Below are positions 8,440 through 62,963 of a DNA stretch of 64,000 nt, piece after piece. The translations under genes were made by a program, and so were the position numbers. Positions within the stretch are counted from its first letter, which is position 1; each line of letters starts with the position of its first letter. Origin of the DNA: Torpedo marmorata (taxonomy: Eukaryota). The notes under the pieces were generated by a model that searched no databases, was not told the origin of the DNA, and saw nothing but the letters and a program-made list of their open reading frames with translations. The stretch spans positions 50,964,001 to 51,028,000 of the forward strand of contig OZ360228.1 of assembly GCA_977017645.1 (NCBI GenBank), in the 5' to 3' direction.

Positions 8440-10009
8440 CCCTCACCATTTCCCTGAAGAACATCTCTTTCTTCAGTTGCTTAGCTAGTTTGAATGCCTG
8501 AAGCAGCCTTTCAACTAGAGCTTAGGCAAGACAAGTAATTGTAGTGGGGTGACATTTTTTGAAAACAAGATAAAATGCAAATTTTTAGAGGGTTCTTCTT
8601 TTCAGTAATCAGTATATAGAGAAAATATTTTATAATGCGCTTGCTAAAACATTGGTAAGATTATTACAATTCAATTAGAAAGGTCCATTGTGATATAAGA
8701 ATGTTTACTTTAGAATAAGAAGCTATTTGGCTGCAACTATTTTGCATCAGAAATCTGTCATGCTTTTCTGGGCTCCTGGTTCATTCTTTTTTTTTCTCCC
8801 CATCCCCCAGTTTCACAGCCATGAGACATTTGTTACATGCCATTCGCATGAGTTGTATTTCTTGCACTAAGTTGGACATAAAAGACAGTGGAGTAGCTTG
8901 GCTCCATGTCAAATGCAAACACTTGGCCCCTGCATAGAGATTGCTAACATTTTAGATAGTAAGAAATATGAGGGCTTTTTTTTAAAGAGGGAAGGGTGGG
9001 CTTTAGAACTTCTAAATTAAAGCCAGATACTGTGATCATTAATTTCAAATAGCTTTTATGAAACAATTTTTATTGGGCTTATTAGGAAGAACAGGAAAAT
9101 GGCAATTTTCTAGTAACATTGACAGACCGTCAAACTGCTTTATAATTTGTCAAATCAGAAACAAAATGAAGGTTGTCGCAATTTTTTCCATAACTGCGGC
9201 ACCGAGGTGGTGCAGTTGGATGCACAGTGATTGTCTGACCATTTTTTTCCTAAGTACCTGCAACTATAGGTTCTTCAGAAAAATATTAATTTTTAAAACC
9301 CTGTATGGGCTAGATTAGTGCCCCATCATTATTTCAAATCTTTATCCTCCTCTTAATTTCCCAGAATGACAAAATATACAAGTGCAGATATATCTTTCAT
9401 CACAAAATCAAAAGTGTATGTTTCGACCTGTGGAAAGAAGTTGTCTGTCGATCTTCACACGTGTCATTCCTGTTGGGCATTTGCCTTTTTTTGTGCCCTG
9501 GGTGTGGAAAACTCAGTTGAAAAGGTCACTGTTGCCAGTCGCTAACCTCTAAATGACCCCTTGACTTTACAGTCTAAAACTGCAGGAGCTGCGAAGGAGC
9601 AGGAGCCTTTCTGTACCAGCACTTATTTGCTGCTGTGGTGATAAAACTTCAGACAGCCCTAATTGATGGGCTTGCTGACATAACAATACCTTGTGAAAGC
9701 AGAGAGTGGCAAAGCCTGGTCTTCATTTATGGACAGCTGGAAGGGGTGTTACAACCCCTTTCAGAAGGAAGCAACCCAGCTGAAGCAATGAACTTTTACC
9801 ATGTTTGTGCCTCTTGCCCAGACAGTCATTCCATCTCAAGAACTTAATATATTTAAAATGGTTGACCAGAAGAGGACTATAAATAAATCAATAACATAGT
9901 GGGCAGCTGATTTTCTTTCTTTCTGTTCTTTCAGCAAATTAAATTGAGGAAAAAGCGACTGTGTTTTAAAATTGAGGAGTAAAATGTACCCTTTTCCTGT
10001 TTGTCTTAG

Positions 10010-10068
10010 GTTCATTAATGCCAGGAGAAGAATAGTACAACCTATGATCGACCAGTCAAATCGAGCAG
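10010..10068 (+). CDS. MEIS2: MEIS2 exon encoding the end of homeodomain helix 3, (W)FINARRRIVQPMIDQSNRA
   Basis: Exact TALE/MEIS motif; acceptor tttgtcttag; donor CAG|GCAAGT (GC-AG intron). Confidence 0.97.
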
Positions 10069-12067
10069 GCAAGTCTCAAGTAGTAACTATATTCAAGTCC
10101 CGCAGGCACAAATCTTCATCAAGTTATTCATCAGGAATTCCTTCACCTGGTAAATAAACCTGGCAGCCAGGCATTCTGGGAGAGCTAACAATCCAGAATT
10201 CTGGTGCAGGGAAATACCTCACTAACTGTTACCAACTGGAATTCACACCCTCACTTTCCCAGAACTGCTTTTATTTCTTAATGATGGTAATTGAGCAAAT
10301 ATCTTCGCACCACAAATAGCTTGTTGAGTGGGTGCTGTTGCTGCAAGATCACTAGTTGTCTCTCAGCTACTGATGCCTTGCCTTACTGTTCACAACTCCT
10401 GGGTTTATGCACTGTTATTAGCAATTGTTGCAGTTTTATTTTACTGTTAACGATAGCTACGAATCCCTTAAAATGATTACTGTTAAAAGTCGACCAAAGC
10501 ACATTACTCCATTTAGTAATTCTAAAGTAAAATGTAGGCTTGAGTATCAAGTAGTGTTGCCTTTCATACGTCCCATTACTCTATTGCCACATCTGACGAG
10601 GAGAAGAAAATTTAGTCGCTAATTTGTTAATCCTTATGATAATGATGTTTAATTTCAGTCTGCTCATTTTCGTTTTAATTTGGCTTATACACAGATTTAA
10701 ATCTGCAAGCACCTTGTGCTGACCATGGAGTTGTGTGCTTCTGCAATGGTTTGCCAGAAGGTTTATTGGTCTTTTATTGTCACTCACACTGCTTTGATTT
10801 GATGTTGATTTGCACCCACTGCTTTACTTCAATATGTAAAGTGCTTTTTATTTCTGTGAATTGTATGACTTGTCAAAGGGGCTTCTCAGTGATCCACAAT
10901 GTGTGAGCAGAATAGGATGGGTCTGAGGTTCTATGACAGCCAGAGAGAAGGGTGCTCTCATTTGTCGGGTTGTTAAGGGTTAACAATGCTGCATGACGGA
11001 ACTCAGTGTAAATTCTCGATAGCGTGAGAAGCTGTTCCACTCTCACTCTGCAGAAGGCACTGACTCTAATTGGGATTTGGATCCACAGGTACCTTCTGAG
11101 TACCTTGCCCAAATGGGTTTCTACATGCGTGAGAGGTATTGCAGCCAAACCCAATGCTTTAATTACCCAAAATCAACACACATATACACTCATTGGAAAG
11201 AAGCTAGGACTGGTAGGCTTGGCTGATGATTTTTTCAATTTCTCCCACGTTCCCAAACTCAGGAAAAGTATTTTCAGTGTTCCTTCCTTGGCTAAGGTGA
11301 CTGAACTCACTACAAGGCACAGCTTTGAAAGGAAAAAAATAAAAACAGTGGGTGGGCAGAATGGCCTTTTTTTGCTGTGAAATTCCCTGATCCTAACAAT
11401 CTGGGCTGTAACTGTTCCATACAGCAGACCCATACAACAGCATGCATTTAATAAGTTAAGGACTTAACGAACTGCCTGTGTAATTCATTTTTAATTATCA
11501 TAAATTGCGTACTATTCATAACACTATTCTTAGTTTTATGTCATTTGATAGTATTGATTGAATAAATCCATTAAATGTTAGGCTGGATGGCTTCATACTT
11601 AGAGTGCAATTAAAGAAGGTGTAGACAATGGTCAGAGTTAATTATCGAGGGACAATCAGGCCACAAAGTCTGACTAAGTCATCTTTAATTTAAGAGACAT
11701 TGACTGCAAAGCAGAGGGAATACCCCATTACCTCATTCTTGGACAAAGTAAATTTCCAGATCTTTTAGACACTGGGGAGAGGAACTGCCATTTGGAGCAC
11801 TCCATTGGTTATGCTTTTGCAATATAAACTTGCACCTTTCATATAAATGAAAGAAAAAGAAAAGAAATGTTTCCAGATGCTGGGATTGTTCAGATCTGGA
11901 GAGGTAGTGGGTTGTGGGGTAGATGGATGATGGCTCAATGTATTTCTTTAATTCCATGTAAGCCTCTTTTGTTCAACAACATACTGTGATTGCTGTTTCA
12001 GGAGTAACTGCTGATTGTTTGGTATGTCTTTTCTTTCTCCTCTGTGTCTACGTTTGACTACAATCAG

Positions 12068-12178
12068 GTTTTCTTCTTGATCCTTCAGTAAGCCAAGGAG
12101 CAGCATACAGTCCTGAGGGCCAACCAATGGGAAGCTTTGTATTGGATGGCCAGCAACATATGGGTATTCGGCCTGCTG
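12068..12178 (+). CDS. MEIS2: MEIS2 exon [37 protein letters not shown]; alternative acceptor starts at 12089
   Basis: MEIS2-diagnostic peptide; acceptors caatcag|G and ccttcag|T 21 nt apart; donor CTG|GTAAGC. Confidence 0.97.
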
Positions 12179-12444
12179 GTAAGCCAAATGCCATTGGTCC
12201 ACATCCTAAATATATCATTATCACCTCTTCTCTCCCTCCCATCCACGTCACCTGTCATGCTCTACCATCACAGGGTTTTCCTCCTTGCCTGCTGCCTGCC
12301 TTGCCTGTCTTCTTTGCACCCAAAGGGAAAAAAATCTTGCAGATAAGAGATTTGTGAGGAATTTGTCCACCCCACGAATCCTAAAATACACAAAAAAAAT
12401 TTAAAAAGGGTCTTTTTTCACTATCTACTAGTCGACCTTGCTGA

Positions 12445-12540
<96 letters not shown>

Positions 12541-14768
12541 CCTTCATCTAGTTAACCAATCGCAAAGCACGGGGGAAGTAAGTACAACCGGGCTGTTTAT
12601 TCTGTCTATTACTGTAGTGCATTTTAAAAAAAATTCCCACCCACCCATTCCTCCAATTTTTTTTTTGCCTTGCCCGTATTTGCATGCTGTTCCAACAAAG
12701 GGCCAGTTGTAATTATTTATCTCATGACATTCGACACCATCCCACAAACTGCAAAAGGTCAGTTATCTGATTTACAGTATACAATGCAAATTTGGTCTGA
12801 AGTCATTCAGTTTAATTATGAAGCCCAGAGAATCAAATTCAAGTAAGGTCTGAACAATCATGACATTTAAGGGTATAGAAACATCTTTGGGGCACCCGAT
12901 TGACTTAAGAGAAATTAACCAAGCTTAATGAAACAATAAAAGCAAGAAGTGGGACTGTCCTTTGAGTGACATACATCTGTCAGGAAATGATTGATGTATG
13001 AATTATCTAATGCAAAGATGAAATGTTGCAGTTTGCAATCTACAGTCTGGATGTATGGCACTGATAATACAACACATTCCTCTTTGGGGGCTTTCCCCCA
13101 TGTGTAGGCATATCTATCAGCCCCCGTGTGAGCCATATAAATAAAGAGACAAGAAATGTAAAAAGAAGCAGTGGCAGATATCAAGAGATGACTGAAAGTA
13201 GAGGAATGGAATTGCCAGCAGAGCTGATTGGCTACTGTCTAAACAATCCATCATTTGGAGTGTGTCCAATGCATGTGATGTTTGAGGAATTCAGATACAG
13301 CAAACACCAATACATCACATTGTTGAAGCATCAGACCATGAGGTTTTATTTAATACTGAAACTCTTTGCGAACATAGAATGCTTACATTTAAAAAGAGCT
13401 GCAGACTTACTTCATTATTAAACCGTCTTCAATCCTCTTGTATCTTCTACTGTCAAAAAAAATTACTTTCCCTGCAGTCACCTGATTGGATTGCTTCAGA
13501 TTATGTAAAATAATGCTTGTAGTTTCATGTGAAATGTTTAAGGGGGTTACCATAATACACCAGTAATGGAGTCAATTTCCTTCCTTCCTTCCTTCTCTCA
13601 TGAATTCAAAAAGAAATGTTAAAAGCAATGTTCCCTAAAACAGTCACTGAGACAATGTCTTCTCACTTGGATAATTCTTAATATAGGCCATATAATTTCT
13701 GGCCTATTTAATTACATAACATATTTTATGCTTCATATCCAATTACATTAATGGCTTAATACAAACAATATTATCCTCCCTTTATTTGATTATGCAGCCA
13801 GACAATATGGTATATTTGGTACTTAATTATCATCATCCGGTGAGCATGCTGCTGTGCTGGAATAAACAGAACTGAGTTGGACTTATTATAAAGTGCAGAC
13901 TGTATTATTGTCTCAGTATGGTTGTACCAATATGGTTACTAATATTCGGCAGAACTACTTAGCACAGTGACAAGCTGACAGGAATTTAGATTACCAGCTA
14001 ATCCAAGATCATATGTGCACAATTCTGTTGGTAAGTTCTAGTAGATGAATAGAGGTAAAGTTGATATCTTATGATTTAGACATTACATTGATAGTTGTTT
14101 TATATTAAAATTAATTCTAGCAAGATGGATGGACTCTGTGAACTGATTGACATTTACTGACAGATCTTTCTCACTATGCCCACATCCCACGCTCTTAGAG
14201 CCACAGGTATGACCCTTTCTCCCAATTTCCTTCTCTGCTTCGAGTCTAGTTCTGTAGTAGAAATCCTATCAAAATGTACGACTCGACACAAAAACTTCAA
14301 AAAGTGCACCGAGAAACAATTTGATCAATTTTTCTGAAAAAACTTTTAAATATTTAGATACACTGTATGTCTGAAAAAGAGATCCTAAGTGCAAGAGATG
14401 CCTTCCTGATCACTTGCCGTTTCTTTTAACTTCTTTTACTCTACTTAATTTTTAGTTTTTTTTATTGTTCCCATATTCCTTCTGCCTGAAACTTGATCCT
14501 TCTTTCGTTCATGAACCTCTGACCCATGAGTAAGATTGAACACATGCCGATTAAATTAATCATTTTGACTTGTCCAGTGTGATTTATTATTATAAAATAC
14601 ACACAATTGTGTAATATATCAATATGTTATACATCAATATTACTGCAATCCAATGTGTATAGAGATGTATGTGTTCTGACCACATAAAAATAACTAGTCA
14701 TAGGATAAGCTTTTGTTGATTTTTAAAAAATGTTAACATGTTGCATTTGTTTATTTTTGTCTTTTCAG

Positions 14769-15055
14769 GTTTACAAGGCATGCCAGGGGACTATGTATCT
14801 CAGGGTGGTCCTATGGGTATGAGTATGGCACAGCCAAGTTACACTCCTCCCCAGATGACCCCACACCCTGCCCAGTTAAGACATGGACCCCCAATGCATT
14901 CCTATCTCCCAAGTCACCCACATCACCCGGCCATGATGATGCATGGAGGACCCCCGCCTCACCCTGGAATGCCAATGTCAGCACAGAGCCCCACCATGTT
15001 AAATCCTGTAGACCCCAGTGTGGGCGGACAGGTTATGGACATCCACGCCCAATAG
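14769..15055 (+). CDS. MEIS2: MEIS2 last exon, long C-terminus GLQGMPGDYVSQGGPMG...GGQVMDIHAQ*
   Basis: Near-identical to the known MEIS2 long C-terminus; acceptor gtcttttcag; TAG at 15053-15055. Confidence 0.98.
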
Positions 15056-16120
15056 TATAAGGGAAAGAAAAAGAGAACCACAAATGTAAGACTTTAACTT
15101 TTGAACTTAATGGAATTCCAGATGAACTGTAATTTTGTTTTCTCTCAACGTCAACAGAGGACCAATGACAGGCCAAGGCTAATGTGAGGCCAAAGGCTTT
15201 CTTCACCTGAACTTTTATCCGATGTAAAGTTCCTCTGGAAAAGACTGAAAGATTTATTACTACTGTAGCATAAATATAGGAACTAAGTTAACTTGTACAT
15301 TTCTGTTGATCACACTATTTCTGTTGCTTCCAATAGTTTTTAGAAAGAAAGTTATCCTTTTTCCACACTATGTGTGTTGTTCCCAAAATGGTTGTCCTCG
15401 TACAGCAAATGGAGTCATGTTTCCGACCGGATTTCCCAAGTCAAGCCATAGAGGAAAGAAGCTGAAGTGAAGATCCATAAGACTTTTTTTGGATGTGGCA
15501 CGAAGTGAAAAGTTTGAAGAATGCACTCAATGACCTGATCGAATAAGGTTTACTCAGTCCAAGCGAAAGGCCTGTGTCTCTGATCGTGTTCCGGACTGAC
15601 CCTTCTTCAAAGAGCTTTTCTGGTGGAACCCTGAAGATGAACGAGCAGCATCCTCCTATGGCTGTGGGTCACAGCTTTGAGAAAAACGTGGTCACACAAA
15701 CTATTCAGAACATTCTTGGGTAGAATTTTCGTAATGAAATATCCTTTAGCTGGTCTTGCACCAAAAGAAACACCTTTTTAAATGAATTCAAACTGCTTGG
15801 AACAAGCAATGGCAACAAAAAAATACTGTAACATACTTGGTACAGAGAGTTCAGTATATTAATTGTTACATGTTAGATATCTATGTGTTTACCTCAATGA
15901 GAAATAACGAATGTTTTGCTAGTATCAAATCTGCTGTGGAATTGGTATTGTATGTCAATGAATTCCTTACTTTTATCAGCACGTGTCACTAGAAGAAAAT
16001 GCTGTTTCCCTTGCGAGCTTTGTCAGATTACATAAATACTTGTATGAGGACTGTGACGTATGTTTAAAAGGTGTTCAGTCACAAATGCCGTAATAAATAT
16101 TTCATTTTTAGATTTTTTTT
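15056..16120 (+). other. MEIS2: MEIS2 3' UTR
   Basis: Repeat-free sequence from the stop codon to AATAAA at 16092 followed by T-rich tracts. Confidence 0.8.
16092..16097 (+). terminator. MEIS2 polyadenylation signal
   Basis: AATAAA with downstream U/GU-rich element (ttttttttctgtttg). Confidence 0.8.
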
Positions 16121-25689: not shown

Positions 25690-27110
25690 AGATTTCAGAT
25701 TTCAAATTTATTGTCAGAATACATACATGACATCACCTGAGATTCTATTTCCTGCTGACAAGGCATAATTACCACTCATTGGTAGTGCAAAAAACAACTG
25801 TACACTATGTACACATGTAAACATATAAAGAAATGTAAACAACTGACTGTGCAAAACAGAGAGGAAAATAAACCAATAAAGTGCAAAAGTAAGAGTCCTT
25901 AAATGAGTCCCTGATAGAGTTTGTTGTTGAGAAGTCTGATGGTGGAGGAACCTGGTGGTGAGAGTTTTGTGGCACCTATACCTCTTTCCTGATGGTAGCA
26001 GCGACAACAGAGCGTGTGCTGGGTGGTGTGGATCCTGATGATTGCTGCTGCTCTCTGACGGGAGAGTTCCATGTAGATGTTCTCGATGGTGGGGAGGGTT
26101 TTGCCTGAGATGTCCTGGGCTGTGTCCACTACCTTTTGCAGGGCTTTACATTCGGGAGTATTGGTGTCTCCATACCAGACCGTGATGCAGCCAGTCAGCA
26201 CACTTTCCACCACACATCTGTGGATAGAGGCGGCACGGTTGGCGTAGCGGTTAGTGCAACGCCTTTACAGTGCCAGTGATCAGGACTGGGGTTCGAATCC
26301 TGCGCTGTCTGTAAGGAGTTTGAACGTTCTCCCCGTGTCTGCATGGGTTTTCCCCGGGGTCTCCGGTTTCCTCCCACCATTCGAAACGTACCGGGGTGTA
26401 GGTTAATTGGGTGTAAATTGGGCGGCATGGACTCATGGGCCGAAATGACCTGTTACTGTGCTGTCTGTCTAAAATATATTTAAAAAAATTGGCCAGGGTT
26501 TCTGATGTCATACCAAACCTCCGCAAACTCCTGAGGAAGTAGAGGCACTGACGTGCTTTCATCACGATGCCATTTGTGTGTTGGGTCCAGGAAAGATCTT
26601 CCGAGTTAGTGAGTCCCAAGAACTTAAATTTTCTCACCCTCTCCACCTCTGATCCCTCAATGATCACTGGATCATACACATCTGGTTTTCCCTTCCTGAA
26701 GTCAACAATCAGCTCCTTGCTTTTGGTGACATTGAGTGCGAGTTATTGTTGGTCACCATTCGGCCAAGTTTTCAATCTCCCTCCTGTATGCTGACTCATT
26801 GCCCCTTTTTATACAACCCATATCGTGGTATCGTCAGCGAACTTGTAGATGGTGTTGTTGTCGTACCGAGCCACACAGTCATAGGTGTAAAGCGAGTAGA
26901 GCAGGGGGCTAAGAACGCATCCCTGTGGTGCTCCAGTACTGATGGAGATTGTGGAGGAGATGTTCTTACCAATCCTCACTGATTGTGGTCTGGAGGTGAG
27001 GAAATCAAGGATCCAATTACATAGTGGGGTGTTGAGCCCCAGGTCATGGAGTTTGCTAATCAGTTTTGAGGCGATGATAGTGTTAAATGTCGAACTGTAG
27101 TCAATAAAGT
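25690..27110 (-). mobile_element. Rex1/Babar-type LINE, 5' truncated, interrupted by a SINE
   Basis: RT peptides (KFKFLGLTNSEDLSWTQHT, VESVLTGCITVWYG); tail GACAATAAA then (ATCTGAA)-like repeats. Confidence 0.9.
26228..26488 (+). mobile_element. tRNA-derived SINE (elasmobranch HE1/V-SINE-like) nested in the LINE
   Basis: A box TGGCGTAGCGG, B box GGTTCGAATCC, core ggagtttg..ttctccccgtgtctgc..ggtttcctccca, A/T-rich tail; five copies in the window. Confidence 0.9.
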
Positions 27111-27829: not shown

Positions 27830-30335
27830 TCTTTTTTCTTTTTAAAATACTTTTATTGAGTTTCAACAAATAAACATGTATACAGAATAACAAATTAAGA
27901 AAAACATTTGAAAAATCATCTTGTATTTAGACATGTATATATATAAAAAAAACAAATAAGTCATCTTAACCAAGTTCTAAATATAAGTTAAAATTCTTAT
28001 TACATTCTAAAAAAAACCAATCCAAAATAAAAAAAACAAGAACAAAAAAAAAGAAAAAACACAAATGACTATTTTAATCTAACCCCTCCCTCTAAACAAG
28101 GTTACCTTTATATTGGAAAAAAAGGGAAAAAATATGGATCCTGGAGCGACCTCCAGGCATCGGACAAAGACTCCTCGGGATAATCAGCTTTATTCCAATC
28201 ATGATAGTATTCAATACCATATCTTTAAAAATTGAAACTTTCTATCTTTAATATTATATCTAATTTTCTCCAAACTCAGATAGGACATTACATCTAGTAA
28301 CCACTATCTATGTGTCGGTGGTGACTCATCTTTCCATTTCAATAAAATTGCTTGTCTTGCTAACAATGTGGAAAAAGCTAAAACTTTTTCCTGTGATGCA
28401 GACAAAGGTATATTTGGTTCATGTGAAAATCCAAACAGAGCAATTCAAGGACATGGTTCTATATTAATCTTAAAAATCAATGATAAAGTTTTAAAAATAT
28501 TGGAGCATTCCCAAAACATATGTATCAGTGAAGCTTCAAAAATTTTACACCTCTCACACAGTGGATCAATGTCAGTGTAAAAACGTGATAGTTTAAGTTT
28601 AGACATATGAATTCTATGTACCACTTTAAATTGTAATAAACAGTGTCTTGCACAAAATGATGAGGCATTAATTAGATTAAGAGTATGATACCAGTTTTCA
28701 TCTGAAAATGTAACATTCAAATCACGTTCCCATTCATTCTTGATCCCCGTCATAGAAGCTACTCTGATTTCCAATAAATCATTATATATACATGATGTTA
28801 ATTCACGTTGGAAAAAGAACCGTAGATTAAAAAGTGAATCAAGAAAATTAGAACTTGGAATTCAAGGAAAATCTGAAAGCTTAGACTGAACAAAATGTCT
28901 AATTTGTAAGTATCTAAAAAAATGTCTATTAGTAAGATTAAATTTATTGACCAATTGTTCAAAAGCGACAAAACTATCTCGAATAAAAAGATAATTAAAA
29001 CTATGAATTCCCAATCTATACCATTCCCTAAATCCTATGTCCATCACAGACGGCTGGAAAAGGTATTTATCTATAATTGGACTAGCCAGAGAAAAACTAT
29101 TAAATCCAAAAAATTTTCTAAACTGTGCCCATATTCTCAACCTATATCTCATTAACGGGTTATGAGTCAATTTAGAAAATGAAAATGATAAAAAGGATCC
29201 TAATATTGCCAACATAGATTTTTTTTTGAAAACTTCAATTCCATTTCCACCCAAGAGGGGCGATTCTCTAACTTATCAAAATGCAATAACAAAAGCAAAT
29301 TATGAATATTAATCGCCCAATAATAAAATCTAAAATCTGGAAGTGATAATCCTCCATTCCTTTTAATTATTTGAAGATGGGATTTATTTATACGTGGTTG
29401 TTTTCCCTGCCATATATATGAAGAAAGAACCGAATCTAATGAAGTAAAAAAAGTTTTAGGAATAAAAATTGGTAAGGATTGGAAAAGATACAGGAATTTA
29501 GGCAAAATATTCATTTTAATCGAATTTATACGGCCCATCATTGTAATAGATAAGGGTGACCAACCCCCTAATTGTAATTTAACCTTGTTGACTAATACCC
29601 AAAAATTTTCTTTCAATAAATTTTTATGGCTTTTTGTAATTGTTATTCCTAAATATTGGAATTGATCATTCACTATTTTAAACGGAAAATTGGGATAACT
29701 AATAAGAGGTCCTCTTAAAGGCAATAGTTCACTCTTGTGTAGATTTAATTTATACCCTGAAAATTAACTAAATTGAGTTAACAAGGTTAATATATTTGGT
29801 ATAGGGACGTCAGGGTTTGAAATAAATAACAGTAAATCGTCTGCATAGAGAGATACTTTACGTTCGATTCTGTTTCTAGTTATACCTTTGAATTCTCTAC
29901 ACTGTCGAAGAGCAACAGCTAAAGGTTCTAATACTATATCAAAAAGCAAAGGACTTAACAGGCAACCCTGACGAGTTCCTCTATTAAGCCAAAACATATT
30001 TGATTGTGGTAAATTAGATTGAACTGAGGCCATTGGGCAAGAATATAATAACTTAATCCATCTAATAAAATCCGAACCAAAATTAAATTTATCTAAAATA
30101 GCAAATAAATATTCCCACTCCACCCGATCAAAAGCCTTTTCAGCATCTAATGAAAGAACACATTCCGTCACTGTAGTAGAGGGTAAATATAAAATATTCA
30201 ACAATCTATTAATGTTATAATAAGAGTAACGATTTTTAATAAACCAGTCTGATCTGAATCGATAATTAAAGGTAGAATATTTTCTCATCTATGTGCTAAT
30301 ACTTCAGACAAAATCTTCATATCCACATTAAGTCT
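27830..30335 (-). mobile_element. L1/Tx1-clade LINE, 5' truncated, disrupted ORF2
   Basis: LSLDAEKAFDRVEW, GTRQGC, SLYADD, YLGI motifs; AATAAA and A-rich tail at ~27830-27857. Confidence 0.92.
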
Positions 30336-31016: not shown

Positions 31017-31635
31017 AAAAAATCATGTCAGATTTTTCTTGAACCTATTCATGCTCTTGGACCAAACTGTCCAGTGAAGTTTACATCAATGTCAATAAAC
31101 GCCACAGCGAAGAGTCCTCAACAAGATAGCCCCGTAGAACAGATTCACTGTTGATCTTTAGCATGAACAATGATGAATGTCTTCCTTTGTCAACCATTTC
31201 TACGAATAACCAAAGTACACCAATGGACCTCAATTCTTTCCAGTACTTTTTCGTGCAACATTTAGTTGAATACTGCCTTGATTCTGAGAGCAGTTTTTTT
31301 ATCCTTTGTGTCTGGCTTTTATGTCTAAATATTAACCAAATTTCTAAAATCTCCAACCCAAGAGTCAGCGAGTTCATTATTCTAATGGGCTACAAAACAG
31401 TCCAGTTGAGGTGATACTGCAGGTGGAGAAATGGTGGAGCCTGTAGCCCAGTGAGGATTGTCTTGGTCTTGTACTCACATCGCATCTTAGAGAGACTAAT
31501 AGAAAAACTGCACACTGAGAGGAACTAAACACAAATCACATGCACAAGAAGGACGTTTACTTGCATTTAAGTAGAACTGTCTCCAGAGAGGTTTCTTTTT
31601 AGTTGGACTTTGCAATGGACTGATATCTCTGACAG

Positions 31636-32651
31636 TTCTTAGCCCCCTGCTCTACTCACTTTACACCTACGACTGTGTAGCTCGGTATGACAATAACATC
31701 ATCTACAAATTTGCCGACGATACCACGGTAGTGGGTTGTATAAAGGAAGGGGATGAGTCAGCATACAGGAGGGAGATTGAAAACCTGGCTGAATGGTGCA
31801 CCAAAAACAACCTTGCACTCAATGTCACCAAAACTAAGGAGCTGATTGTTGACTTCAGGAAAGGAAAGCCAGAGGTATACAATCCAGTGATCATTGGGGG
31901 ATCAGAGGTGGAGAGGGTGAGCAAATTTAAGTTCTTGGGAGTCACTATCTCGGAGGATCTTTCCTGGACCCAACACACCAATGGCATCAAGAAGAAAGCA
32001 CGTCAGCGCCTCTACTTCCTCAGGAGTTTGCGGAGGTTTGGTATGACACCAGAAACTCTGGCAAAGTTCTACAGAGGTGTGGTGGAAAGTATGCTGACCA
32101 GCTACATCACAGTCTGGTATGGGAACACCATTACCCCTGAGCGTAAAGCCCTCCAAAAGGTAGTGGACACAGCCCAGGACATTACTAGCAAAACTCTCCC
32201 CACTATTGAGTACATCTACAGGGAACGCTGCTGTCGGAGGGCAGCAGCAATCATCAAAGACCCACACCACCCAGCGCACGCTCTGTTCTCACTGCTGCCA
32301 TCAGGAGAGAGGTATAGGTGCCACAAGACTCGCACCACCAGGTTTAGGAACAGCTGCTACCCCTCTACCATCAGAATTCTCAACGACAAAGTCAAATCAG
32401 AGACTCATTTAAGGACTCTTACTCGTGCACTTTATTGATTTTTCTTTGCTCTCTCTGTATTGCACAGTCAGTTTCATTTTCAGTTTCATTCGTTACCTGT
32501 TAGCAGTTCTTTTGATTGTTTACATGTTTACGCTGTGTACAGTTTACTTTTGCATTACCAATTAGTGGTAATTCTGTTGCACCCGCAGGGAAAAAGAATC
32601 TCAGGGTTGTATGTGACGTCATGTATGTACTCTGACAATAAATCTGAAATC
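31636..32651 (+). mobile_element. Rex1/Babar-type LINE, 5' truncated
   Basis: YKFADDTT, open 235-aa RT C-terminus, tail GACAATAAATCTGAAATC; same subfamily as 25690-27110. Confidence 0.92.
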
Positions 32652-36430: not shown

Positions 36431-39400
36431 GGAGTGAGTGGCACAGGGAAGGAGTGGAGCACTGAGGCTTTGGCTCAAGAGGCTTCGGCGCAGAGAGGTT
36501 GAGACACTTTAAAAGAGGTAAGTTTCTTCTTTCTAATTTGTCACTTTGATCAGTTAAAACTACTGTGCACGTTTCAGACATGGCAGGTGAGCTCCAACCC
36601 GTGTCATGTTCCTCCTGTGCCATGTGGAAACTCAGGATGACTGATAGTGTTCCTGAGGTTTACGTGTGCACAAAGTGTGTACAGCTACAACTGCTGATAG
36701 ACCGCATGACGGCACTGGAGCTGCGGATGGACTCACTTTGGAGCATCCGGGATGCGGAGGTGATGGTGGATAGGACATTCAGTGAGTTGGTCACGCCGCA
36801 GTTTAAGAGAGCAGAAGTAGATAAGGACTGGATGACCAGCAGCAAGAGCAGAAACAGAAAGGTAGTGAGGGAGTCTCCTGCAGTCATCACACTCCATAAC
36901 AGATATACCACTTTAGATATGGTTGGGGGAGATGGCCCACCAGGAGAAGGCAGTAGAAGCCAGGATCATGGCTCTGTGAGTGGCTCAGCTATGAAAGAGG
37001 GAAGTAAAAAGACAGGTAGAGCAATAGTTATAGGGGACTCTATAGTGAGAGGAACAGATAGGAGCTTCTGCGGCCGCAAAAAGGACTCCCGGATGGTGTG
37101 CTGCCTCCCGGGTGCAAGGGTCAAGGATGTCTCGGAGCGGCTGCAGGACATTCTGGAAGGGGAGGGTGAACAGCCAGCTGTCGTGGTCCATATTGGTACC
37201 AACGATATAGGAAAAATGTGAGATAAGCTCCTACAAGCTGAATTTAGGGAGCTAGGAAATAGATTAAGGAGTAGGACCTCAAAAGTAATAATCTCAGGAT
37301 TATTACCAGTACCACGAGCTAGTGAGAATACAAATAACAGAATTGTCAGAATGAATATGTGGCTTGAACAATGGTGCTGGAGGGAAGGTTTCAGTTTCTT
37401 GAAGCATTGGAACCGGTTCTGGGGCAGATGGAACCAATACAGGCCAGACGGTTTACATCTGGGCAGGGGCGGGATAAATGTACTTGGGAGTTCTTTTGCT
37501 AGTGCTGTTGGGGAAGGTTTAAACTAGTGGGGCAGGGGAATGGGAACCTACACAGAAAAAATGAGGAAGGTGGTACAGAGACCAAAGAAAGTGATAGGAA
37601 AAAGACAAAGAGAAATAGAGGGCAGAAAAATCAAAATCAAAAGCAAAGCATACAGAAGTCACTAGATTCTAAAAGGTCAATGAGCATAAGGGCACTTTAT
37701 CTGAATGCCCGCAGTATTAGAAACAAGGTTAGTGAACTTGAGGCGCAAATCGGTACCCAGGCATATGATTTAGTGGCCATCACAGAAACATGGCTACAAG
37801 ATGACCATAATTGGGAATGAAACTTTCAAGGGTATCAGGTAGTACAAAAGGATAGACAGGATGGTAAGGGAGGAGGTGTGGCGCTCTTAATCAAGGATGA
37901 GTTCAAGGCAATAGTGAGAGATGATATAAGATCTAAGGAACATAATGTTGAGTCCACCTGGGTGGAGATTAAGAATAACAAAGGGAAAAAAATCACTGGT
38001 GGGTGTTGTCTATCGCCCACCAAATAACAATAATACAGTGGCACAGGCAATAAACAGAGAGATAAGTGAGGCATGTAAGAATGGAACAGCAGTTGTCGTG
38101 GGGGACTTTAACTACCACGTAGATTGAGAAAATCAAGTTGGTCACGGGAGTCTGGAAGAAGACTTCATAGAATGCATCCGTGATAGCTTTCTTGAGCAGC
38201 ATGTTAAGGAACCAACAAGAGTGAATGCTATTTTGGATCTAGTATTGTGCAATGAGATAGGTAGAGTAAATGACGTAATAGTTAGGGACCCTCTTGGAAA
38301 TAGCGATCATAGTATGATTGAATTTCTCATACAGATGGAAGGGGAAATAGTTAGATCTAAAACTAATGTATTATGCTTAAACAGGGGAGACTATCACAGG
38401 ATGAGAGAGGAATTGGTCAGCGTGGACTGGGAGCACAGGCTAGTTGGTAGAACAGTTGAGGAACAGTGGAAGATTTTCAAGGAGATTTTTCACAATGCTC
38501 AACAAAAATATATTCCAGTTAAGAATAAGGGCAGCAAGAGAGGGAAGAGTCAGCCGTGGTTAACTAAGGAAATAAAGGAGAGTATAAAATTAAAAGCTCA
38601 GGTGTACAAAGTTGCAAAGAGTAGTGGGAAACTGGAAGATTGGGAAAACTTTAAAAGACAACAAGTGATAACAAAGCGGGTAATAAGAAAGGGGAGAAAG
38701 AATTATGAAGGTAAATTGGCACAAAATATAAAAACAGATAGCAAAAAATTTTATAAATATATAAAACGGAAGAGGGTGGCTAGAGTTAACATAGGACCCT
38801 TGGAAAATGAGAAGGGGAAATTGATATTGAATAATGAGGAAATGGCCGAGGCCTTGAACAAATATTTTGTGTCAGTCTTCACGGTGGAAGACACGTCCAG
38901 CATGCTAAAGAGTGGAGATAGGGATGCGAATGTTGGTGAAGGCCTTGATAAAATAGTTGTTACAAAGGAGATAGTGATGAAGAAACTAATGGGACTAAAG
39001 CCAGACAAATCCCCTGGTCCTGATGAAATGCATCCCAGGGTTCTGAGGGAAATGGCAGAAGTTATAGTCGATGCATTGGTGGTCATATACCAAAATTCTC
39101 TGGATCCTGGGCAGGTCCCGGCAGATTGGAAGACAGCAAATGTCACGCCACTTTTTAAGAAGGGATGTAGGCAGAAGACTGGGAACTATCGGCCAATTAG
39201 CTTAACGTCTGTAGTTGGGAAAATGCTTGAAGCTGTCATTAAGGATGAAATAGTGAGACATTTAGAATGAAAGGGTTCAATCAGGCAGACGCAGCATGGG
39301 TTTAGGAAGGGCAGATCTTGTTTGACAAACTTGTTAGAGTTCTTTGAGGACATAATGGGTGCGGTAGATAGAGGGGAACAGGTTGATGTTGTATATTTGG

Positions 39401-40312
39401 ATTTACAGAAAGCGTTTGATAAGGTGCCACACAAGAGACTTATCAGTAAGTTACAGGTGAATGGAGTCCAGGGAAGTATATTGGCATGGATTGAGGATTG
39501 GTTGTCTGACAGGAGGCAGAGAGTCGGGATAAATGGGTGTTTTTCTGATTGGCAGACAGTGGTAAGTGGGGTGCCGCAGGGGTCGGTGCTGGGCCCACAA
39601 CTGTTCATCATTTACATTGATGATTTGGAGGAGGGGACAAAATGTGGTGTAGCCAAGTTTGCGGATGATACTAAATTGAGTGAAAGTGCAAATTGTACTG
39701 AGGATGTGGAGAGGCTGCAGAGGGATATAGTTAAGTTAGGTGAGTGGGCAAAGGTCTGGCAGATGGAGTATAATGTTAGTAAGTGCGAGGTTATCCACTT
39801 TGGCAAGAAAAATAAAAGATGATGATGGTGAAAAACTGCAGCATGCTAATGTGCAGAAGGACTTGGGAGTGCTTGTGCACGAATCGCAAAAAGTTGGGTT
39901 GCAGGTGCAGCAGGTTATTAAGAAGGCAAATGGAATGTTGGCCTTCATCGCTAGAGGAATTGAATTCAGGAGCAAGGAGGTAATGTTGCAACTGTACAAG
40001 GTACTGGTGAGACCGCACCTGGAGTACTGTGTGCAGTTCTGGTCTCCATATTTGAGGAAGGATATACTGGCCTTAGAGGCAGTCCAGAGGAGGTTTACTA
40101 GGTTGATCCCTGAGATGAAGGGGTTGACTTATGATGAAAGATTAAATCGTCTGGGATTATACTCGCTCGAGTTCAGACGAATGAGAGGAGATCTTATAGA
40201 AACATATAGAATTATGAAGGGGATGGATAGGATAGAGGTAGGAAGGTTTTTTTCACTGGCGGGTGAGACCAAAACTAGGGGGAGTAGATTTAGGACAGAG
40301 ATGAGGAAAAAC
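36431..40312 (+). mobile_element. Near full-length CR1 LINE: ORF1 (Zn finger, coiled coil, SGNH esterase; ~36580-37527) and ORF2 (APE endonuclease + RT; ~37680-40310), disrupted, 3' end missing
   Basis: CSSC..CTKC, IGDSIVRG, VHIGTND, PDGLHL; YLNARSIRNK, ITETW, GDFN, SDH; YLDLQKAFDKVPH, GVPQGSVLGP, KFADD; premature stops at 37219, 38125, 39268 and frameshifts. Confidence 0.95.
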
Positions 40313-40965
40313 AAAGGGAGCACCAGATGCAGTAAATAAGTTTATTTACTGAATCCGGTGCTCCTTTTTGGCATTCTCTACATCGGAGAGACCGGTCGTA
40401 GATTAGGAGATCGCTTTGCTGAGCACCTCCACTCCGTCCGCAACAACAGCGACCTCCCAGTAGCCAACCATTTCAATTCCGAGTCACACTCCCACACTCA
40501 CATGTCTGTCCATGGCCTTATGTACTATCCCACCCAGACTACCCTCAAATTGGAGGAACAACATCTTATTTTCCGTCTGGGCACTCTCCAGCCAGACGTC
40601 ATTAACATTGACTTTTCTGCTTTCCACTAAACCTGCTTGCCTTTTCCTTCCCCTCCCCCCCCTACCTGTCCTTCCAGTTTTTTCCCACCCACCCAGTCAT
40701 CCCTCCTCCCCCTCTTTGCTGCTGTCCCCTCCCTCCTTTCTCCACCTATCATCTCCTGCCTTTACCACCCCCCCTTCCCCCCCTCACTCTTTTGTTTGGA
40801 CGCCTGCCGGCATTTTCTCATACTTTGATGAAGGGCTCAAGCCCGAAACGTCGGTTATGTATTTCTACCTTTGCTATATAAAAGACACTGTTTGACCTGC
40901 TGAGTTTCTCCAGCAATTGTGTTTTTTACTTCAACCACGGTGTCTAAAGATTTTCGTGATTTACT
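40313..40965 (+). mobile_element. Penelope-like element 3' part with fold-back 5' end
   Basis: GILYIGETGRRLGDRFAEH...LEEQHLIFRLGTLQPDVINIDFS GIY-YIG domain; C/T-rich tract; hammerhead-like motif at 40825-40856. Confidence 0.92.
40825..40861 (+). ncRNA. Minimal type I hammerhead-ribozyme-like motif (degenerate)
   Basis: UUGAUGA-A-GGGC(UCAA)GCCC-GAAA-C(GUCG)GUU; C3 of the core is U and stem I is weak. Confidence 0.55.
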
Positions 40966-51679: not shown

Positions 51680-53498
51680 AGATTAATTCGGATAAAAGTG
51701 AAATTATGCCTTTAACACAAGGGGATTATAGTAAATGTAAAGAAATTACACAATTTAAATGGTCAAAGGAAGGAATTAAATATTTGGGAATAAAGATTGA
51801 TAAAAAATTAACTAATCTGTATAAATTAAACTATTTACCATTATTTGTGAATATAAAAAAAGATCTGGAGAGTTGGAAGGATTTACCTATAACTTTAATG
51901 GGAAGAGTAAATTGTATTAAAATGAATGTTTTTCCGAGAATTCAATATCTTTTTCAATCAATTCCTTATGAAACTCCTCAAAAATTTTTCAAAGATTTAA
52001 ATTTAATTATTAGGAAATTCTTGTGGAAAGGAAAGTTGGCTAGAGTAGGTATGGAGAAATTAACTTGGAATTATGAAATGGGTGGTCTACAACCTCCTAA
52101 TTTTCAATATTACTATAAAGCAGCCCAATTAAAGTTTATTAACAAAATGTTTGATTTAGGAAAACTCTCTGCTTGGATTAGAATAGAATTAAATAATATA
52201 GGAGAAGATTTGAAAGAAGAAGTTATTCATAAATGGAATTCTAAATTATTATTGACAAGAGGGAAACATTCTCCTATTTTTAGACATTTGTTAGAAATAT
52301 GGAATAGAGTGGATAGAGAAATAGGAGCGAAAGGGTCAATTTCTCGAAAAATGCCTCTGTATCAAAATAAACTTATCCCATTTACTGTTGATAATCAATT
52401 ATTTAAAATTTGGTTCCAAAAGGGAATTAAGGAAATAAATGATTGTTTTGAAGCTAGTAAATTTATTACGTTTCAAAGAATGAAAGATAAGTTTAATGTA
52501 GCAAATAATACAATCTTTGCTTACTATCAAATCAGAGCATTTTTAGTTGAAAGGTTGGGCCATAGTTTGATTTTACCAAGACAGAGTGAATTGAAATTAT
52601 TAGTTACTAATGGGGGTGTTAATAAATTTATTTCTCAAATGTATAGATTGTTACAGAGGAAAATGCCTAAACCAGGAATTCATAAATCAAGATTAAATTG
52701 GGAAACAGATTTGAACGTAACAATAGATGAAGAACATTGGAAAGAATTATGTAAACAAAGTATGACGAAGATTATTAATGTTAGATATAGATTGGTGCAA
52801 TATAATTTTTTTCATCAATTATATTTAACACCTAAAAATTAAAGAAATTTAATCCGACATTATCCGGCTTATGTTTTAGATGTAATAGAGAGGAAGGTTC
52901 TTTTGTACATTCTACATGGTTTTGTCCAAAGATATATGATTTTTGGTTGAAAGTTAAAAAGTTTTTAGATAAAGTATTAAGAATTACACTCCCAATGGAT
53001 CCTATGTTATTTTTGTTTGGAGATATTAAAAGAATCAGTGTTAAAATGAAATTAAATATGTATCAAACAGAATTTTTACGTATTGCTTTAGCTGTTTCTA
53101 AGAAATGTATTGCTATTACATGGAAATCGGATGTAGATTTAGGGTTAGAAAGATGGCATGCAGAATTGCGTTCATGTATACCACTTGAAAAAATTACTTA
53201 TAATTTACGTAATAAATATCATTTCTTCTTGAAAATATGGAGTCCATATATAAAAACTGTCGGTTTAAGGATTTGAAGATCTCCGGATATTGGATCTGAC
53301 TGGCGAACCTGTGTTCCACAATAAAATTAGTTTATAGTTGTTGTGTTTAGAGTGACATTCTCCTTACTTTATCTTTTTCTTCTTCCTTTCTTTTTTTCGG
53401 GAGGGGAGGGAGGGAGGGTGAAAATGTATCACATGTAATTTGATAATTTAGCATTTTAAACTATGTAATGTGTGATTTAAAAATTTTAAATTAAAAAA
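51680..53498 (+). mobile_element. Young 5'-truncated L1/Tx1 LINE with 16-bp TSD
   Basis: 378-aa and 109-aa ORF2 pieces (KYLGIKI, LMGRVNCIKMNVFPR); poly-A; TSD AAGCATACACTGCACT (51664-51679) / AAGCATGCACTGCACT (53499-53514). Confidence 0.95.
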
Positions 53499-57100: not shown

Positions 57101-57769
57101 TGTTTGGTTCACATATCTACTTTCTATGCACAATAAAATTTCAAGCTGATTGAGATTCCTCTAAGTTGCAAACATTTGGAGTTTAAGGAGTGTCATTTAA
57201 AAACATTCTGTCAATCCAAACTGAAAATGTCATTGTGGTTTAACAACAATATTGTGGGAAGACGCATATTTGAATGCTGCAATTAAATTGAAATACTTCT
57301 TTCAACATTGCTTTCCCTGGATTGTAACAGCCTGAACTTTTCAGCGTCGAAATGAACAACACATACACATTCAGCTTCACTAGAAGAAAAGCGAGAACAG
57401 GAAATCATTCAGCTTGTTGTTTCTGGGCTAGATCTTCACCAGTGTAAATCAAAATTATTCCCACTCCCCTGCTTCCCCAGCACCCCCACCTCACTTATTC
57501 TTTCCTCAAACCTAGAAGGTAGATTTGCATCCACCTTTACATTCCCCCGCCTTCTCACTCAATCAGGTAAAGAAATTTCTCTTAGACTTACAACAGTTGA
57601 AATGGATGACCCACAATTGTTTCCACAACCAGGGGAAATAAGACTTTTTCGATGCACTTTATGAAAACCCTTCATAATATTTTTACAAAGACTAACCACC
57701 CCCTGTGACTTCATACATCAAATCATTATTATCTCTGTTCTATTCATATAATCCTGGTGAAACTGGATC

Positions 57770-58846
57770 AGGCCATGATTCCCTCAGTGCTGGTCAAGAA
57801 GCTACAAACTCTAGGCCTCTGTACCCCCCTCTGCAACTGGATCCTTGACTTTCTCATCGGAAGACCGCAGTCAGTACGAATTGGAAACAACATCTCCTCC
57901 TCACTGATTATCAACACAGGCGCACCCCAAGAATGCGTGCTTAGCCCTCTGCTCTACTCGTTATACACCCATGACTGTGTGGCCAGGCACAATTCCAATG
58001 CCATCTACAAGTTTGCCGATGACACCACAGTTGTCGGCAGAATCACAAACAGCAATGAGGAAGCGTACAGGAGGGAGATAGATCAGCTCGTTGAATGGTG
58101 TAATGACAACAACCTTGCGCTCAACGTCTGCAAAACCAAGGAGATGATTGTGGACTTCAGGAGGAAGTCATGGGAACACGACCCAGTCCTCATCGAGGGC
58201 TCAGTAGTGGAGAGGGTCAAGAACTTCAAATTCCTGGGTGTCAACATCTCTGAGGATCTGTCCTGGAGCCTCCTCGTTGATGCAATCACAAAGAAGGCTC
58301 GTCAGCGGCTATACTTTGTGAGGTGTCTGAGGAGATTTGGTATGTCACCGAAGACTCTCGTCAACTTCTACAGGTGTACCGTGGAGAGCATTCTGGCTGG
58401 TTGCATCACTGCCTGGTATGGAGGCGCCAACTCTCAGGACAAGAGTAAACTCCAGAGGGTTGTTAACTCGGCCTGTTACATCACAGGCACCAGACTTCAC
58501 TGCATCGAGGACATCTACATGAGGCGGTGTCTTAAAAAAGCAGCCGCTATCCTCAAAGACCCCCACCACCCAGGCCATGCCCTCTTCACTCTGCTACCAT
58601 TGGGAAAAAGGTACAGGAGCCTAAAGACGAGCACTCAACGGCACAAGGACAGCTTCTTCCCCGCTGCCATCAGATTCCTGAATAATCAATGAACCAAAGA
58701 CACTGCCTTACTTTTCGTGCACTATTATTTATATTTTTTTATAGTAATGTCGTAAGATGGTTATAATATGAATGTTTGCACTATGATGCTGCCGCAAAAC
58801 ACCGAATTTCATGACTTGTTCATGACAATAAATTCTGATTCTGATC
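57770..58846 (+). mobile_element. Rex1/Babar-type LINE, 5' truncated with open RT frame
   Basis: 311-aa ORF with [21 protein letters not shown] and YKFADDTT; tail GACAATAAA(TTCTGA)2. Confidence 0.93.
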
Positions 58847-61163: not shown

Positions 61164-62963
61164 CCGTATATTTTGGCGTATAAGTCGACTAGCAGATGTC
61201 AACCCCCCCTTTTCAGCCTCATTTTAATGGTTTTATTGTATATCCGGCGTATAAGTCGACCCCCAAAAATCGCGATGATTGAGCTGCTGGGCGTTGACCA
61301 GCGTATAGGTCGACCCACAACGATCGCGCTGATTGAGCTGCTGGCCGTTGTCTGGAGGTGATTGTTATCATGGAGGCTCCATTGAAACGATGAAAGTATG
61401 AGGCGAGTTTTAAATTAAAAGTGATAGAAATGGCCAAGAAAACCAACAACTATGCTGCTGCAAGAAAATTTGATATATATGAGAAGTTGGTAAGAGATTG
61501 GAGGAAGAAAAGAGACTTTAAGAAAAATACCAAAAAGGCAATGTTCGATGAGAAGAGGAATCACTCGTTGGCCAGAGTTGGAAAATCATGTCGCAGCATG
61601 GGTACGTGAACAGAGGCAAGATTGCTACATAGTCACCCGAAATAAAATAAGAACATTTGCACTGAAGTGGGCAAAGTCGCACCCAGAACTCAGTAATGAT
61701 TTTGAAGCTACAGTTGGCTGGTGCAACCGTTTCATGAACGGGAAAAATCTGGTATTACGACAAAAAACAAAAATTGCTCAGAAACTACCAAAAGATCTTG
61801 ATCATAAAATTGTAAGTTTTCACCAGTTTATTTTACGTAACCGGCAGAAACACAAGTTTGCATTGGCAAATATTGGAAACATGGACGAAACCCCCATGAA
61901 TTTTGATATGATAGGCAATAGAACAGTGGAATGGAAAGGTGTGAAAACTGTGCAAACCAGGAGTACAGGCCATGAAAGGACCAGGTTTACTGTGGTGTTA
62001 TCGTGGTTGGCCGACGGGACCAAGTTAAGACCCATGGTAATCTTCAAACATAAATTTAAACCTAAAATAAAATTCCCTGTTGGCATTTTTGTACATTTTC
62101 ATGAAAAAGGATGGATGGATGAAAATGGTGTAAAACTATGGATAGACAATGTGTGGAACAGGCGGCCAGGCGGTTTACGCAAGGAATGGAGTTTGCTGGT
62201 CTGGGATATGTTTCGTAGCCACTTAACTGAGAAGACTAAAAGTAGATTAGCACAACATAATACTTACATGGCGGTTATCCCAGGTGGTTTGACGTCTATA
62301 TTGCAACCTCTCGATGTCTGTTTGAACAAGCCATTCAAAGACCATGTGTGTGAAGAGTGGAATACATGGATGTCGAGTGCAGAAAAATCATTTACAAAAG
62401 GCGGGGCAATGCGTGCTGCATCGCTTGATGTGCTGTGTGACTTCGTGCTCAAGGCATGGGACAAAGTGAAAGTAGAGATTATAATAAAATCGTTTAAAAA
62501 GTGCGGTATCTCTTGTGCAATTGATGGTACAGAAGATGATTTATTGTGGGACACTGACGACGAAGGTGAAGCCGCCTCATCAGATACAGACTGGGACCTG
62601 TATGATGACTGTTTAAACAGTGAGAACCCGGATGTGCTTGCCGAGATCTTTGCCTCAGACGATGATAGTGAAAGTTATTTTTAAGGGTCCTAAATGTCTT
62701 GTTGTTTTCAATAAAAATGTCAATGAAAATTTGTTGCAGTCGGGTTTTTTTTTTGGTTTTTCAAGTGTCAACTTATAGGCCGAATCGGGTTTTCAAGAGT
62801 CGACTTATATGCCAAATCGGGTTTTCAAAGGTCGACTTATACGCCGAATCGGCGTGGAGTGGTTTTTGAACAGATTTTAAGGTCTCAAAAGTATATCTGG
62901 CGTATAAGTCGACCCCCGTTTTTTGAGGGTTTCAAGACTCGTCTTATATGCCGAAATATACGG
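61164..62963 (+). mobile_element. Full-length pogo-superfamily DNA transposon (DD35D, Passer/POGK-like)
   Basis: TA TSDs (61162-61163, 62964-62965); TIRs CCGTATATTTTGGCGTATAAG / CTTATATGCCGAAATATACGG; subterminal CGTATAAGTCGAC repeats. Confidence 0.95.
61370..62684 (+). pseudogene. pogo transposase (Brinker-type DBD, CENP-B HTH, DDE_1) with a stop at 61391-61393 and a frameshift near 61510
   Basis: KYEASFKLKVIEMAK..AAARKF..VRDWRK; WPELE..GWCNRFM; NMDETP, VWDMF, QPLD with 35 residues between the last two Asp; acidic tail. Confidence 0.92.

What the first reader, a model, noticed from the sequence alone, without database searches (positions are those of the whole stretch)
10069..10158. Hidden in-frame extension of the MEIS2 homeodomain exon: GC donor versus a GT donor that overlaps a stop codon and AATAAA
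Seen: the canonical donor is non-canonical (CAG|GCAAGT). The frame stays open for 81 more nt (GKSQVVTIFKSRRHKSSSSYSSGIPSP) to CCTG|GTAAAT at 10149/10150, a GT donor in the same phase 1. The next bases GGT AAA TAA are an in-frame stop, and AATAAA (10153-10158) overlaps it. Inference: one 10-nt spot offers three outcomes. These are normal MEIS2, MEIS2 with a basic/Ser-rich 27-aa insert right after the homeodomain, or an intronically polyadenylated protein lacking the C-terminal activation domain (possible dominant negative). U1 binding at the GT site would mask the poly(A) signal.
Basis: partly seen in the sequence, partly recalled or inferred. Interest (0 to 1): 0.72.

Follow-up and report, generated by a model that had tools for sequence, protein, structure and literature searches.

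The report
Known Meis exon 10′ splice extension
This is an already published, very old optional piece of the Meis developmental genes (exon 10′), intact here in what is likely a shark or ray MEIS2 gene, which would add 27 amino acids after the DNA-binding domain when the second splice site is used; the proposed early-ending third product has no support.

Summary
It is not new. It is Meis exon 10′ (Irimia et al. 2011, PMC3140891), an ancestral coding segment made optional by an upstream, often GC, donor. The MEIS1 paralog of this genome keeps the same 81-nt frame (62/81 nt identical, then 20/81 past the donor); its third paralog has lost it. The peptide is conserved in cnidarians, nematodes and hemichordates. 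One public contig joins the MEIS1 10′ end exactly to MEIS1 exon 11, and automated gene models of several cartilaginous fishes splice MEIS2 10′ to exon 11. The junction was not tested with reads for MEIS2 itself. The poly(A) branch is unsupported: the paralog reads AATAAC, the downstream sequence is poor in U/GU, AATAAA occurs 94 times in the window, and 0 of 129 spliced-homeodomain proteins entering 10′ end at this stop. The scan found this element twice before on other DNA. Still open in print: what 10′ does and how often it is included in cartilaginous fish.

The parts
10010..10068 (+). MEIS2 exon 10 (numbering of Irimia 2011): end of the homeodomain, FINARRRIVQPMIDQSNRA
   Evidence: matches the C-terminus of solved MEIS homeodomain constructs; contigs X2-6, X2-7, X3-12 begin at this acceptor and end at 10068
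10066..10074 (+). Proximal 5′ splice site CAG|GCAAGT (GC donor, 8 of 9 consensus letters); the same letters encode G-K-S of exon 10′
   Evidence: also GC in the MEIS1 paralog and in L003
10069..10149 (+). Exon 10′: 81-nt in-frame alternative extension, 27 aa GKSQVVTIFKSRRHKSSSSYSSGIPSP
   Evidence: described in PMC3140891
10147..10155 (+). Distal 5′ splice site CTG|GTAAAT (7 of 9 consensus letters), phase 1
   Evidence: identical in the MEIS1 paralog and L003; the paralog's site is spliced in contig X1-3
10153..10158 (+). AATAAA overlapping the donor and the in-frame TAA (10155-10157); likely incidental
   Evidence: paralog AATAAC, L003 AATACA; weak downstream element
12068..12178 (+). Exon 11 with two in-phase acceptors 21 nt apart (GFLLDPS optional; second start 12089)
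   Evidence: described in PMC3140891
12482..12540 (+). Coding part of exon 12a ([19 protein letters not shown])
14769..15055 (+). Coding part of exon 12b (ancestral C-terminus)

Best explanation
The 81 nt are Meis exon 10′, an ancestral coding stretch lying between two in-phase splice donors: use of the upstream GC donor likely gives ordinary MEIS2 in most transcripts, and use of the downstream GT donor would add a 27-residue basic, serine-rich linker between the homeodomain and the C-terminal activation region. Shown: the two donors, the open frame, conservation of the peptide from cnidarians to vertebrates, and splicing at both donors in the MEIS1 paralog of related organisms. Inferred: the upstream donor arose inside coding sequence at the wobble position of a Gly codon (GGA gives no donor; GGC a weak GC donor; GGT a strong GT donor, after which 10′ decays), and a GC donor is what lets the downstream GT compete. 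Also inferred: the conserved K-S-R-R-x-K-S core tunes MEIS activity, most likely as a basic nuclear-import or DNA-contact patch next to phosphorylatable serines. The stop and AATAAA are inferred to be by-products of the donor sequence.
For: Paralog: same length, no indel, 62/81 nt, identity falls to 20/81 right after the distal donor. pN/pS 0.48 against MEIS1 and 0.60 against L003. All 120 listed protein hits run from NRA/NRT-type exon 10 into a G-K/R-led segment, most of them clearly homologous, including Nematostella, Hydra, Saccoglossus and nematodes; 29 of 120 are vertebrate models with exactly 27 aa joined to exon 11 (P0078 dropped as a false pattern match). MEIS2 models with in-frame 10′: 3 of 15 listed members of cluster 1 and 5 of 9 of cluster 3 (cartilaginous fishes), 4 of 15 of cluster 2 (turtle, birds). 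Contig X1-3 (140 nt, depth 40.6) ends in the last 19 nt of the MEIS1 10′ joined to the first 11 nt of MEIS1 exon 11, which lies 42 kb away in G000; X2-6 and X3-12 join 10068 to the same exon. Among 63 genomic-type metagenome loci: GA with 10′ kept 6, GC with 10′ kept 1, GC without 1, GT without 55 (loci are redundant, not independent). PMC3140891 describes the 10/10′ switch, the GC donor in 46% of studied genes, low inclusion in vertebrates and repeated loss.
Against: No read or contig shows the 10149-to-exon-11 junction for MEIS2 in this species; the laid stretch ended at 11900 and no listed run is on record as RNA. Gene models are automated predictions. pN/pS of about 0.5-0.6 on 27 codons is only moderate constraint, against 0 for exon 10. 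Synonymous divergence is lower in 10′ than in exon 10 (pS 0.38 versus 0.65, p=0.16; 0.33 versus 0.74, p=0.035), so part of the conservation may act on DNA or RNA. Frameshifted 10′ versions are annotated in two rays (P0018, P0150, P0152, P0154). The function of the peptide was not tested here; the paper calls it an open question.
Confidence: 0.88

Rival explanations
1. Three-way switch of the first reader: the AATAAA inside the distal donor is a used intronic poly(A) signal, masked by U1, giving a MEIS2 that ends ...PSPGK without the activation domain.
For: Hexamer and stop are present. No difference is listed at 10150-10160 in MEIS2-like contigs X1-2 and X2-9 (11 of the 12 differences of X1-2 are listed elsewhere, 40 table rows not shown). 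9 of the 120 hits end at 27 aa + GK, but all lack the spliced upstream homeodomain exon. An earlier scan note reports the hexamer in another shark's MEIS1 (not tested here).
Against: The MEIS1 paralog reads AATAAC and L003 AATACA with no stop. Downstream U/GU content ranks 11th lowest and T content 20th lowest of 93 AATAAA sites; no upstream TGTA. The same GTAAATAAA turns up at an unrelated Meis proximal donor (L080; 1 of 38 distinct GT donors). 0 of 129 spliced-homeodomain proteins entering 10′ end at the GK stop. X1-2 and X2-9 run through the site to 10222 and 10488 with no A-rich loose end, though contigs cannot show ends.
Confidence: 0.07
2. Exon 10′ is a decaying vestige in vertebrate MEIS2: rarely included, kept mainly by constraint on splicing signals or an overlapping DNA element, with no useful protein product.
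For: PMC3140891 reports very low inclusion in vertebrates and at least six losses in vertebrate genes. Lost in this genome's third paralog (GT donor, TGA after 3 codons). Frameshifted models in two rays. Reduced synonymous divergence.
Against: Length and frame kept in both paralogs and in shark, ray, sturgeon, turtle, bird and dog models. Spliced paralog contig at depth 40.6. Differences in relatives' MEIS2-like contigs within 10′ that are listed are one synonymous and two I-to-V changes (codons read).
Confidence: 0.25
3. Chance open frame behind a GC donor.
For: 24% of 81-nt intron windows nearby are stop-free.
Against: Paralog and pan-metazoan conservation and a spliced junction.
Confidence: 0.01

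Closest known systems
Meis/hth exon 10 + 10′ alternative 5′ splice site (Irimia et al. 2011, PMC3140891; read: abstract, all of Results, Discussion part 1 and section 17, passages; figures and supplements not seen)
   Same: Position directly after the constitutive last homeodomain exon, GC proximal donor, phase-1 distal donor, conserved coding sense shared with non-bilaterians, loss in the Meis3-type paralog, optional 21-nt 5′ extension of exon 11, exons 12a and 12b.
   Different: The word 'shark' does not occur in that paper's main text and 'polyadenylation' neither. It reports Meis2 10′ lost in zebrafish, Xenopus and mammals and interrupted in chicken; here MEIS2 10′ is intact, and a dog MEIS2 model (P0051) and several bird models keep an open frame.
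Intronic polyadenylation suppressed by U1 snRNP (telescripting; recalled, no call)
   Same: A poly(A) hexamer next to a 5′ splice site with an in-frame stop.
   Different: No downstream U/GU-rich element, no upstream TGTA, hexamer absent from the paralog, no 3′-end evidence.
Truncated MEIS isoforms such as MEIS1D (PMC3157405; passages read)
   Same: Alternative processing of Meis genes yields shortened proteins.
   Different: MEIS1D skips exon 8 and lacks the homeodomain; the proposed product here would keep the homeodomain and lose the C-terminus.

Membership tests
Meis exon 10′ (Irimia 2011) | Contiguous 3′ extension of the constitutive exon 10 of a Meis gene | tested here: met
Meis exon 10′ (Irimia 2011) | Upstream donor often GC | tested here: met
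   CAG|GCAAGT here, in the paralog and in L003
Meis exon 10′ (Irimia 2011) | Coding sense conserved with bilaterian and non-bilaterian Meis | tested here: met
   homologous peptide in Nematostella, Hydra, Saccoglossus, nematodes; the paper's own Fig. 1C alignment could not be seen
Meis exon 10′ (Irimia 2011) | Downstream phase-1 donor spliced to exon 11 | tested here: inconclusive
   Shown for the MEIS1 paralog in contig X1-3 and in automated MEIS2 models of related species; not shown by reads for this MEIS2
Meis exon 10′ (Irimia 2011) | Low inclusion level in vertebrates | not testable with these tools
   only assembled contigs were available
Intronic poly(A) site under U1 control | AAUAAA hexamer | tested here: met
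   10153-10158
Intronic poly(A) site under U1 control | Downstream U/GU-rich element and upstream UGUA | tested here: not met
   rank 11 of 93 (GU/UU) and 20 of 93 (T) from the low end; no TGTA within 60 nt upstream
Intronic poly(A) site under U1 control | Hexamer conserved with the donor | tested here: not met
   paralog AATAAC, L003 AATACA; apparently kept in two close MEIS2-like contigs
Intronic poly(A) site under U1 control | RNA 3′ ends 10-35 nt downstream that rise on U1 inhibition | not testable with these tools
   contigs run through the site but cannot show ends

The most novel reading that the evidence does not exclude
In cartilaginous fishes exon 10′ is still included at substantial, regulated levels in MEIS1 and MEIS2, as in amphioxus, and in MEIS2 the distal donor doubles as a U1-masked poly(A) signal, so that one site chooses between a +27-aa activator and an activation-domain-less MEIS2. 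The inclusion half alone is about 0.35 likely; the probability given is for the full three-way switch.
Probability: 0.07. Interest if true: 0.55.

Novelty: already known. Interest (0 to 1): 0.15.

Why it matters
Little is new in the element itself. The residual value: cartilaginous fishes keep exon 10′ intact in both MEIS1 and MEIS2, a lineage the 2011 text does not mention, so they are a good place to measure inclusion and test the function of a peptide conserved since the cnidarian-bilaterian split that the paper left unexplained. A real donor/stop/poly(A) switch would add a new way to make a MEIS without activation domain, but nothing here supports it.

Tried and rejected
No RNA holder listed for this stretch; this is no evidence on expression. 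MEIS2-like intron contigs in X1 and X2 cover several separate parts of the intron, as pre-mRNA or DNA would, so they were not taken as an alternative 3′ UTR. Rfam: 0 matches in 9500-16000. Pfam: no family on the 48-aa exon peptide; PDB matches cover residues 1-19 only, none covers 10′. blastn of the MEIS2 intron against 8.3 kb of the MEIS1 intron and the L003 intron: no hit at E 0.1. The metagenome scan gave 80 loci, only one of them (L003) vertebrate-like, so hexamer conservation across vertebrates is thinly sampled. Literature: searches listed no paper on Meis intronic polyadenylation at this site or on the function of 10′ (listings only, apart from PMC3140891 and PMC3157405); Xiong 2009 (PMC2722232) is not held and the Irimia supplements could not be read; both may bear on inclusion levels. 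No fold was predicted: a 27-aa low-complexity peptide would not give a useful model.

Full report
Observation. The sequence is as described. Exon 10010-10068 ends CAG|GCAAGT. The frame stays open for 81 nt to CTG|GTAAAT, with TAA at 10155-10157 and AATAAA at 10153-10158. The downstream exons identify MEIS2: exon 11 with two in-phase acceptors 21 nt apart, exon 12a and exon 12b. The best protein hits are cartilaginous-fish Meis2a at 96% in a 6.2-Gb genome, so the host is likely a shark or ray (inference).

Paralogs in the same genome. A DNA search found a second locus on C11. It carries the same 81-nt open extension, a GC proximal donor and CTG|GTAAATAA; its exon 11 is MEIS1-type. Ungapped identity is 51/59 in exon 10, 62/81 in the extension, 8/8 over donor and stop, then 20/81. 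A third locus on C74, likely MEIS3 (NRTG ending; label recalled), has a GT donor with TGA three codons later and no extension.

Deep conservation. The 48-aa query gave 189 hits, 120 listed. The segment after exon 10 is homologous in Nematostella, Hydra, hemichordates, a tardigrade, molluscs and nematodes. 29 of the 120 are vertebrate models with exactly 27 residues joined to exon 11 (one further row, P0078, dropped as a false pattern match). Cluster look-ups show in-frame 10′ in MEIS2 models of bamboo shark, stingrays, devil ray, sawfish, sawshark, sturgeon, a turtle, birds and a wolf: 3 of 15, 4 of 15, 5 of 9, 2 of 3 and 1 of 1 listed members of five clusters. These are automated models. pN/pS in the extension is 0.48 (against MEIS1) and 0.60 (against L003), against 0 in exon 10. 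Among 80 metagenome loci, 63 are genomic-type: the six coral-like ones have GA at the donor position and run on through the peptide; 55 have GT and no peptide; two have GC, one with and one without. The loci are redundant, so this is a pattern, not a statistic. It fits a donor born at the wobble base of a Gly codon.

Transcript evidence. No listed run is on record as RNA. Four of eight were laid on 9800-11900 at 80% likeness. Contig X1-3 (140 nt, depth 40.6) matches 10044-10130, and its loose end is the last 19 nt of the MEIS1 extension followed by the first 11 nt of MEIS1 exon 11, which is 41,959 nt past the proximal donor in G000. This shows the distal donor spliced in a related organism's MEIS1. 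X2-6 and X3-12 show the GC donor spliced to the same exon. MEIS2-like contigs X1-2 and X2-9 read through the extension into the intron. The MEIS2 junction itself was not tested, and contigs give no inclusion level.

Literature. PMC3140891 (Results and parts of Discussion read) names the constitutive part exon 10 and the optional part 10′. It reports a GC upstream donor in 46% of studied genes, constitutive inclusion in nematodes, substantial inclusion in amphioxus and hemichordates, very low inclusion in vertebrates, at least nine losses overall, and leaves the function open. Its figures and supplements were not seen. The finding is this element. Two earlier scan notes reached the same reading on other genomes; I had stated mine before seeing them, and they are not independent support.

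The poly(A) branch. AATAAA occurs 94 times on the window's + strand and three times in this intron. Four of its six letters here (AAT preceded by the donor's GTA) are fixed by donor and stop; AAT is followed by AAA in 4.7% of cases. The paralog has AATAAC and L003 AATACA with no stop. The downstream 50 nt rank 11th lowest of 93 for GU/UU and 20th lowest for T, and there is no upstream TGTA. The same GTAAATAAA occurs at 1 of 38 distinct unrelated Meis GT donors. None of 129 spliced-homeodomain proteins entering 10′ ends at the GK stop; four end within 35 residues in other ways. Against my reading: the hexamer seems kept in two close MEIS2-like contigs (table cut by 40 rows), and an unchecked note reports it in another shark's MEIS1. 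Without 3′-end data the branch is unlikely (0.07), not excluded.

Mechanism. Two in-phase donors compete. The proximal one matches the consensus at every position except the C; the distal is a GT with 7 of 9 matches. Proximal use, likely the major route by the published vertebrate data, gives ordinary MEIS2. Distal use would insert a basic, serine-rich linker about 12 residues after the Pfam homeodomain. Its best-conserved core, V-F-K-S-R-R-x-K-S, looks like a nuclear-import or DNA-contact patch with kinase sites; this is inference and untested. A vestige reading (0.25) is helped by frameshifted models in two rays and by low synonymous divergence.

Verdict. Observation confirmed, interpretation partly supported, already known, interest 0.15.

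Noticed in passing
G000:C11:123686609-123728567 (L083, L087): The MEIS1 paralog's intron 10 is 41,959 nt, against 1,999 nt in this MEIS2 and 0.1-1.8 kb in the vertebrate genes of Table 1 of PMC3140891.
   Followed up: no
L087:1440-1501: The optional 21-nt 5′ extension of exon 11 is not coding in the MEIS1 paralog: an in-frame TAA lies just before the acceptor.
   Followed up: no
L086 (G000:C74:38158936-38159019, - strand): Third Meis paralog, likely MEIS3, with a GT donor and no exon 10′.
   Followed up: partly
proteins P0018, P0150, P0152, P0154: MEIS2 models of Mobula birostris and Narcine bancroftii carry a frameshifted 10′; in Mobula it is still joined to exon 11, out of frame. Real loss in progress or assembly indels.
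   Followed up: no
protein P0051: A wolf MEIS2 model keeps an open though diverged 10′ spliced to exon 11, although the 2011 paper lists mammalian Meis2 10′ as lost.
   Followed up: no
window 10857-10892: A 36-nt piece of the intron is matched by long unrelated contigs in X3 and X5, likely a fragment of a repeat.
   Followed up: no
window 26254-26742, 29203-30288, 31575-32435, 36550-40336, 51682-52839, 57709-58689, 61494-62681: Long stop-free stretches that read like LINE reverse-transcriptase/endonuclease pieces and one pogo-like transposase (labels recalled, not searched).
   Followed up: no
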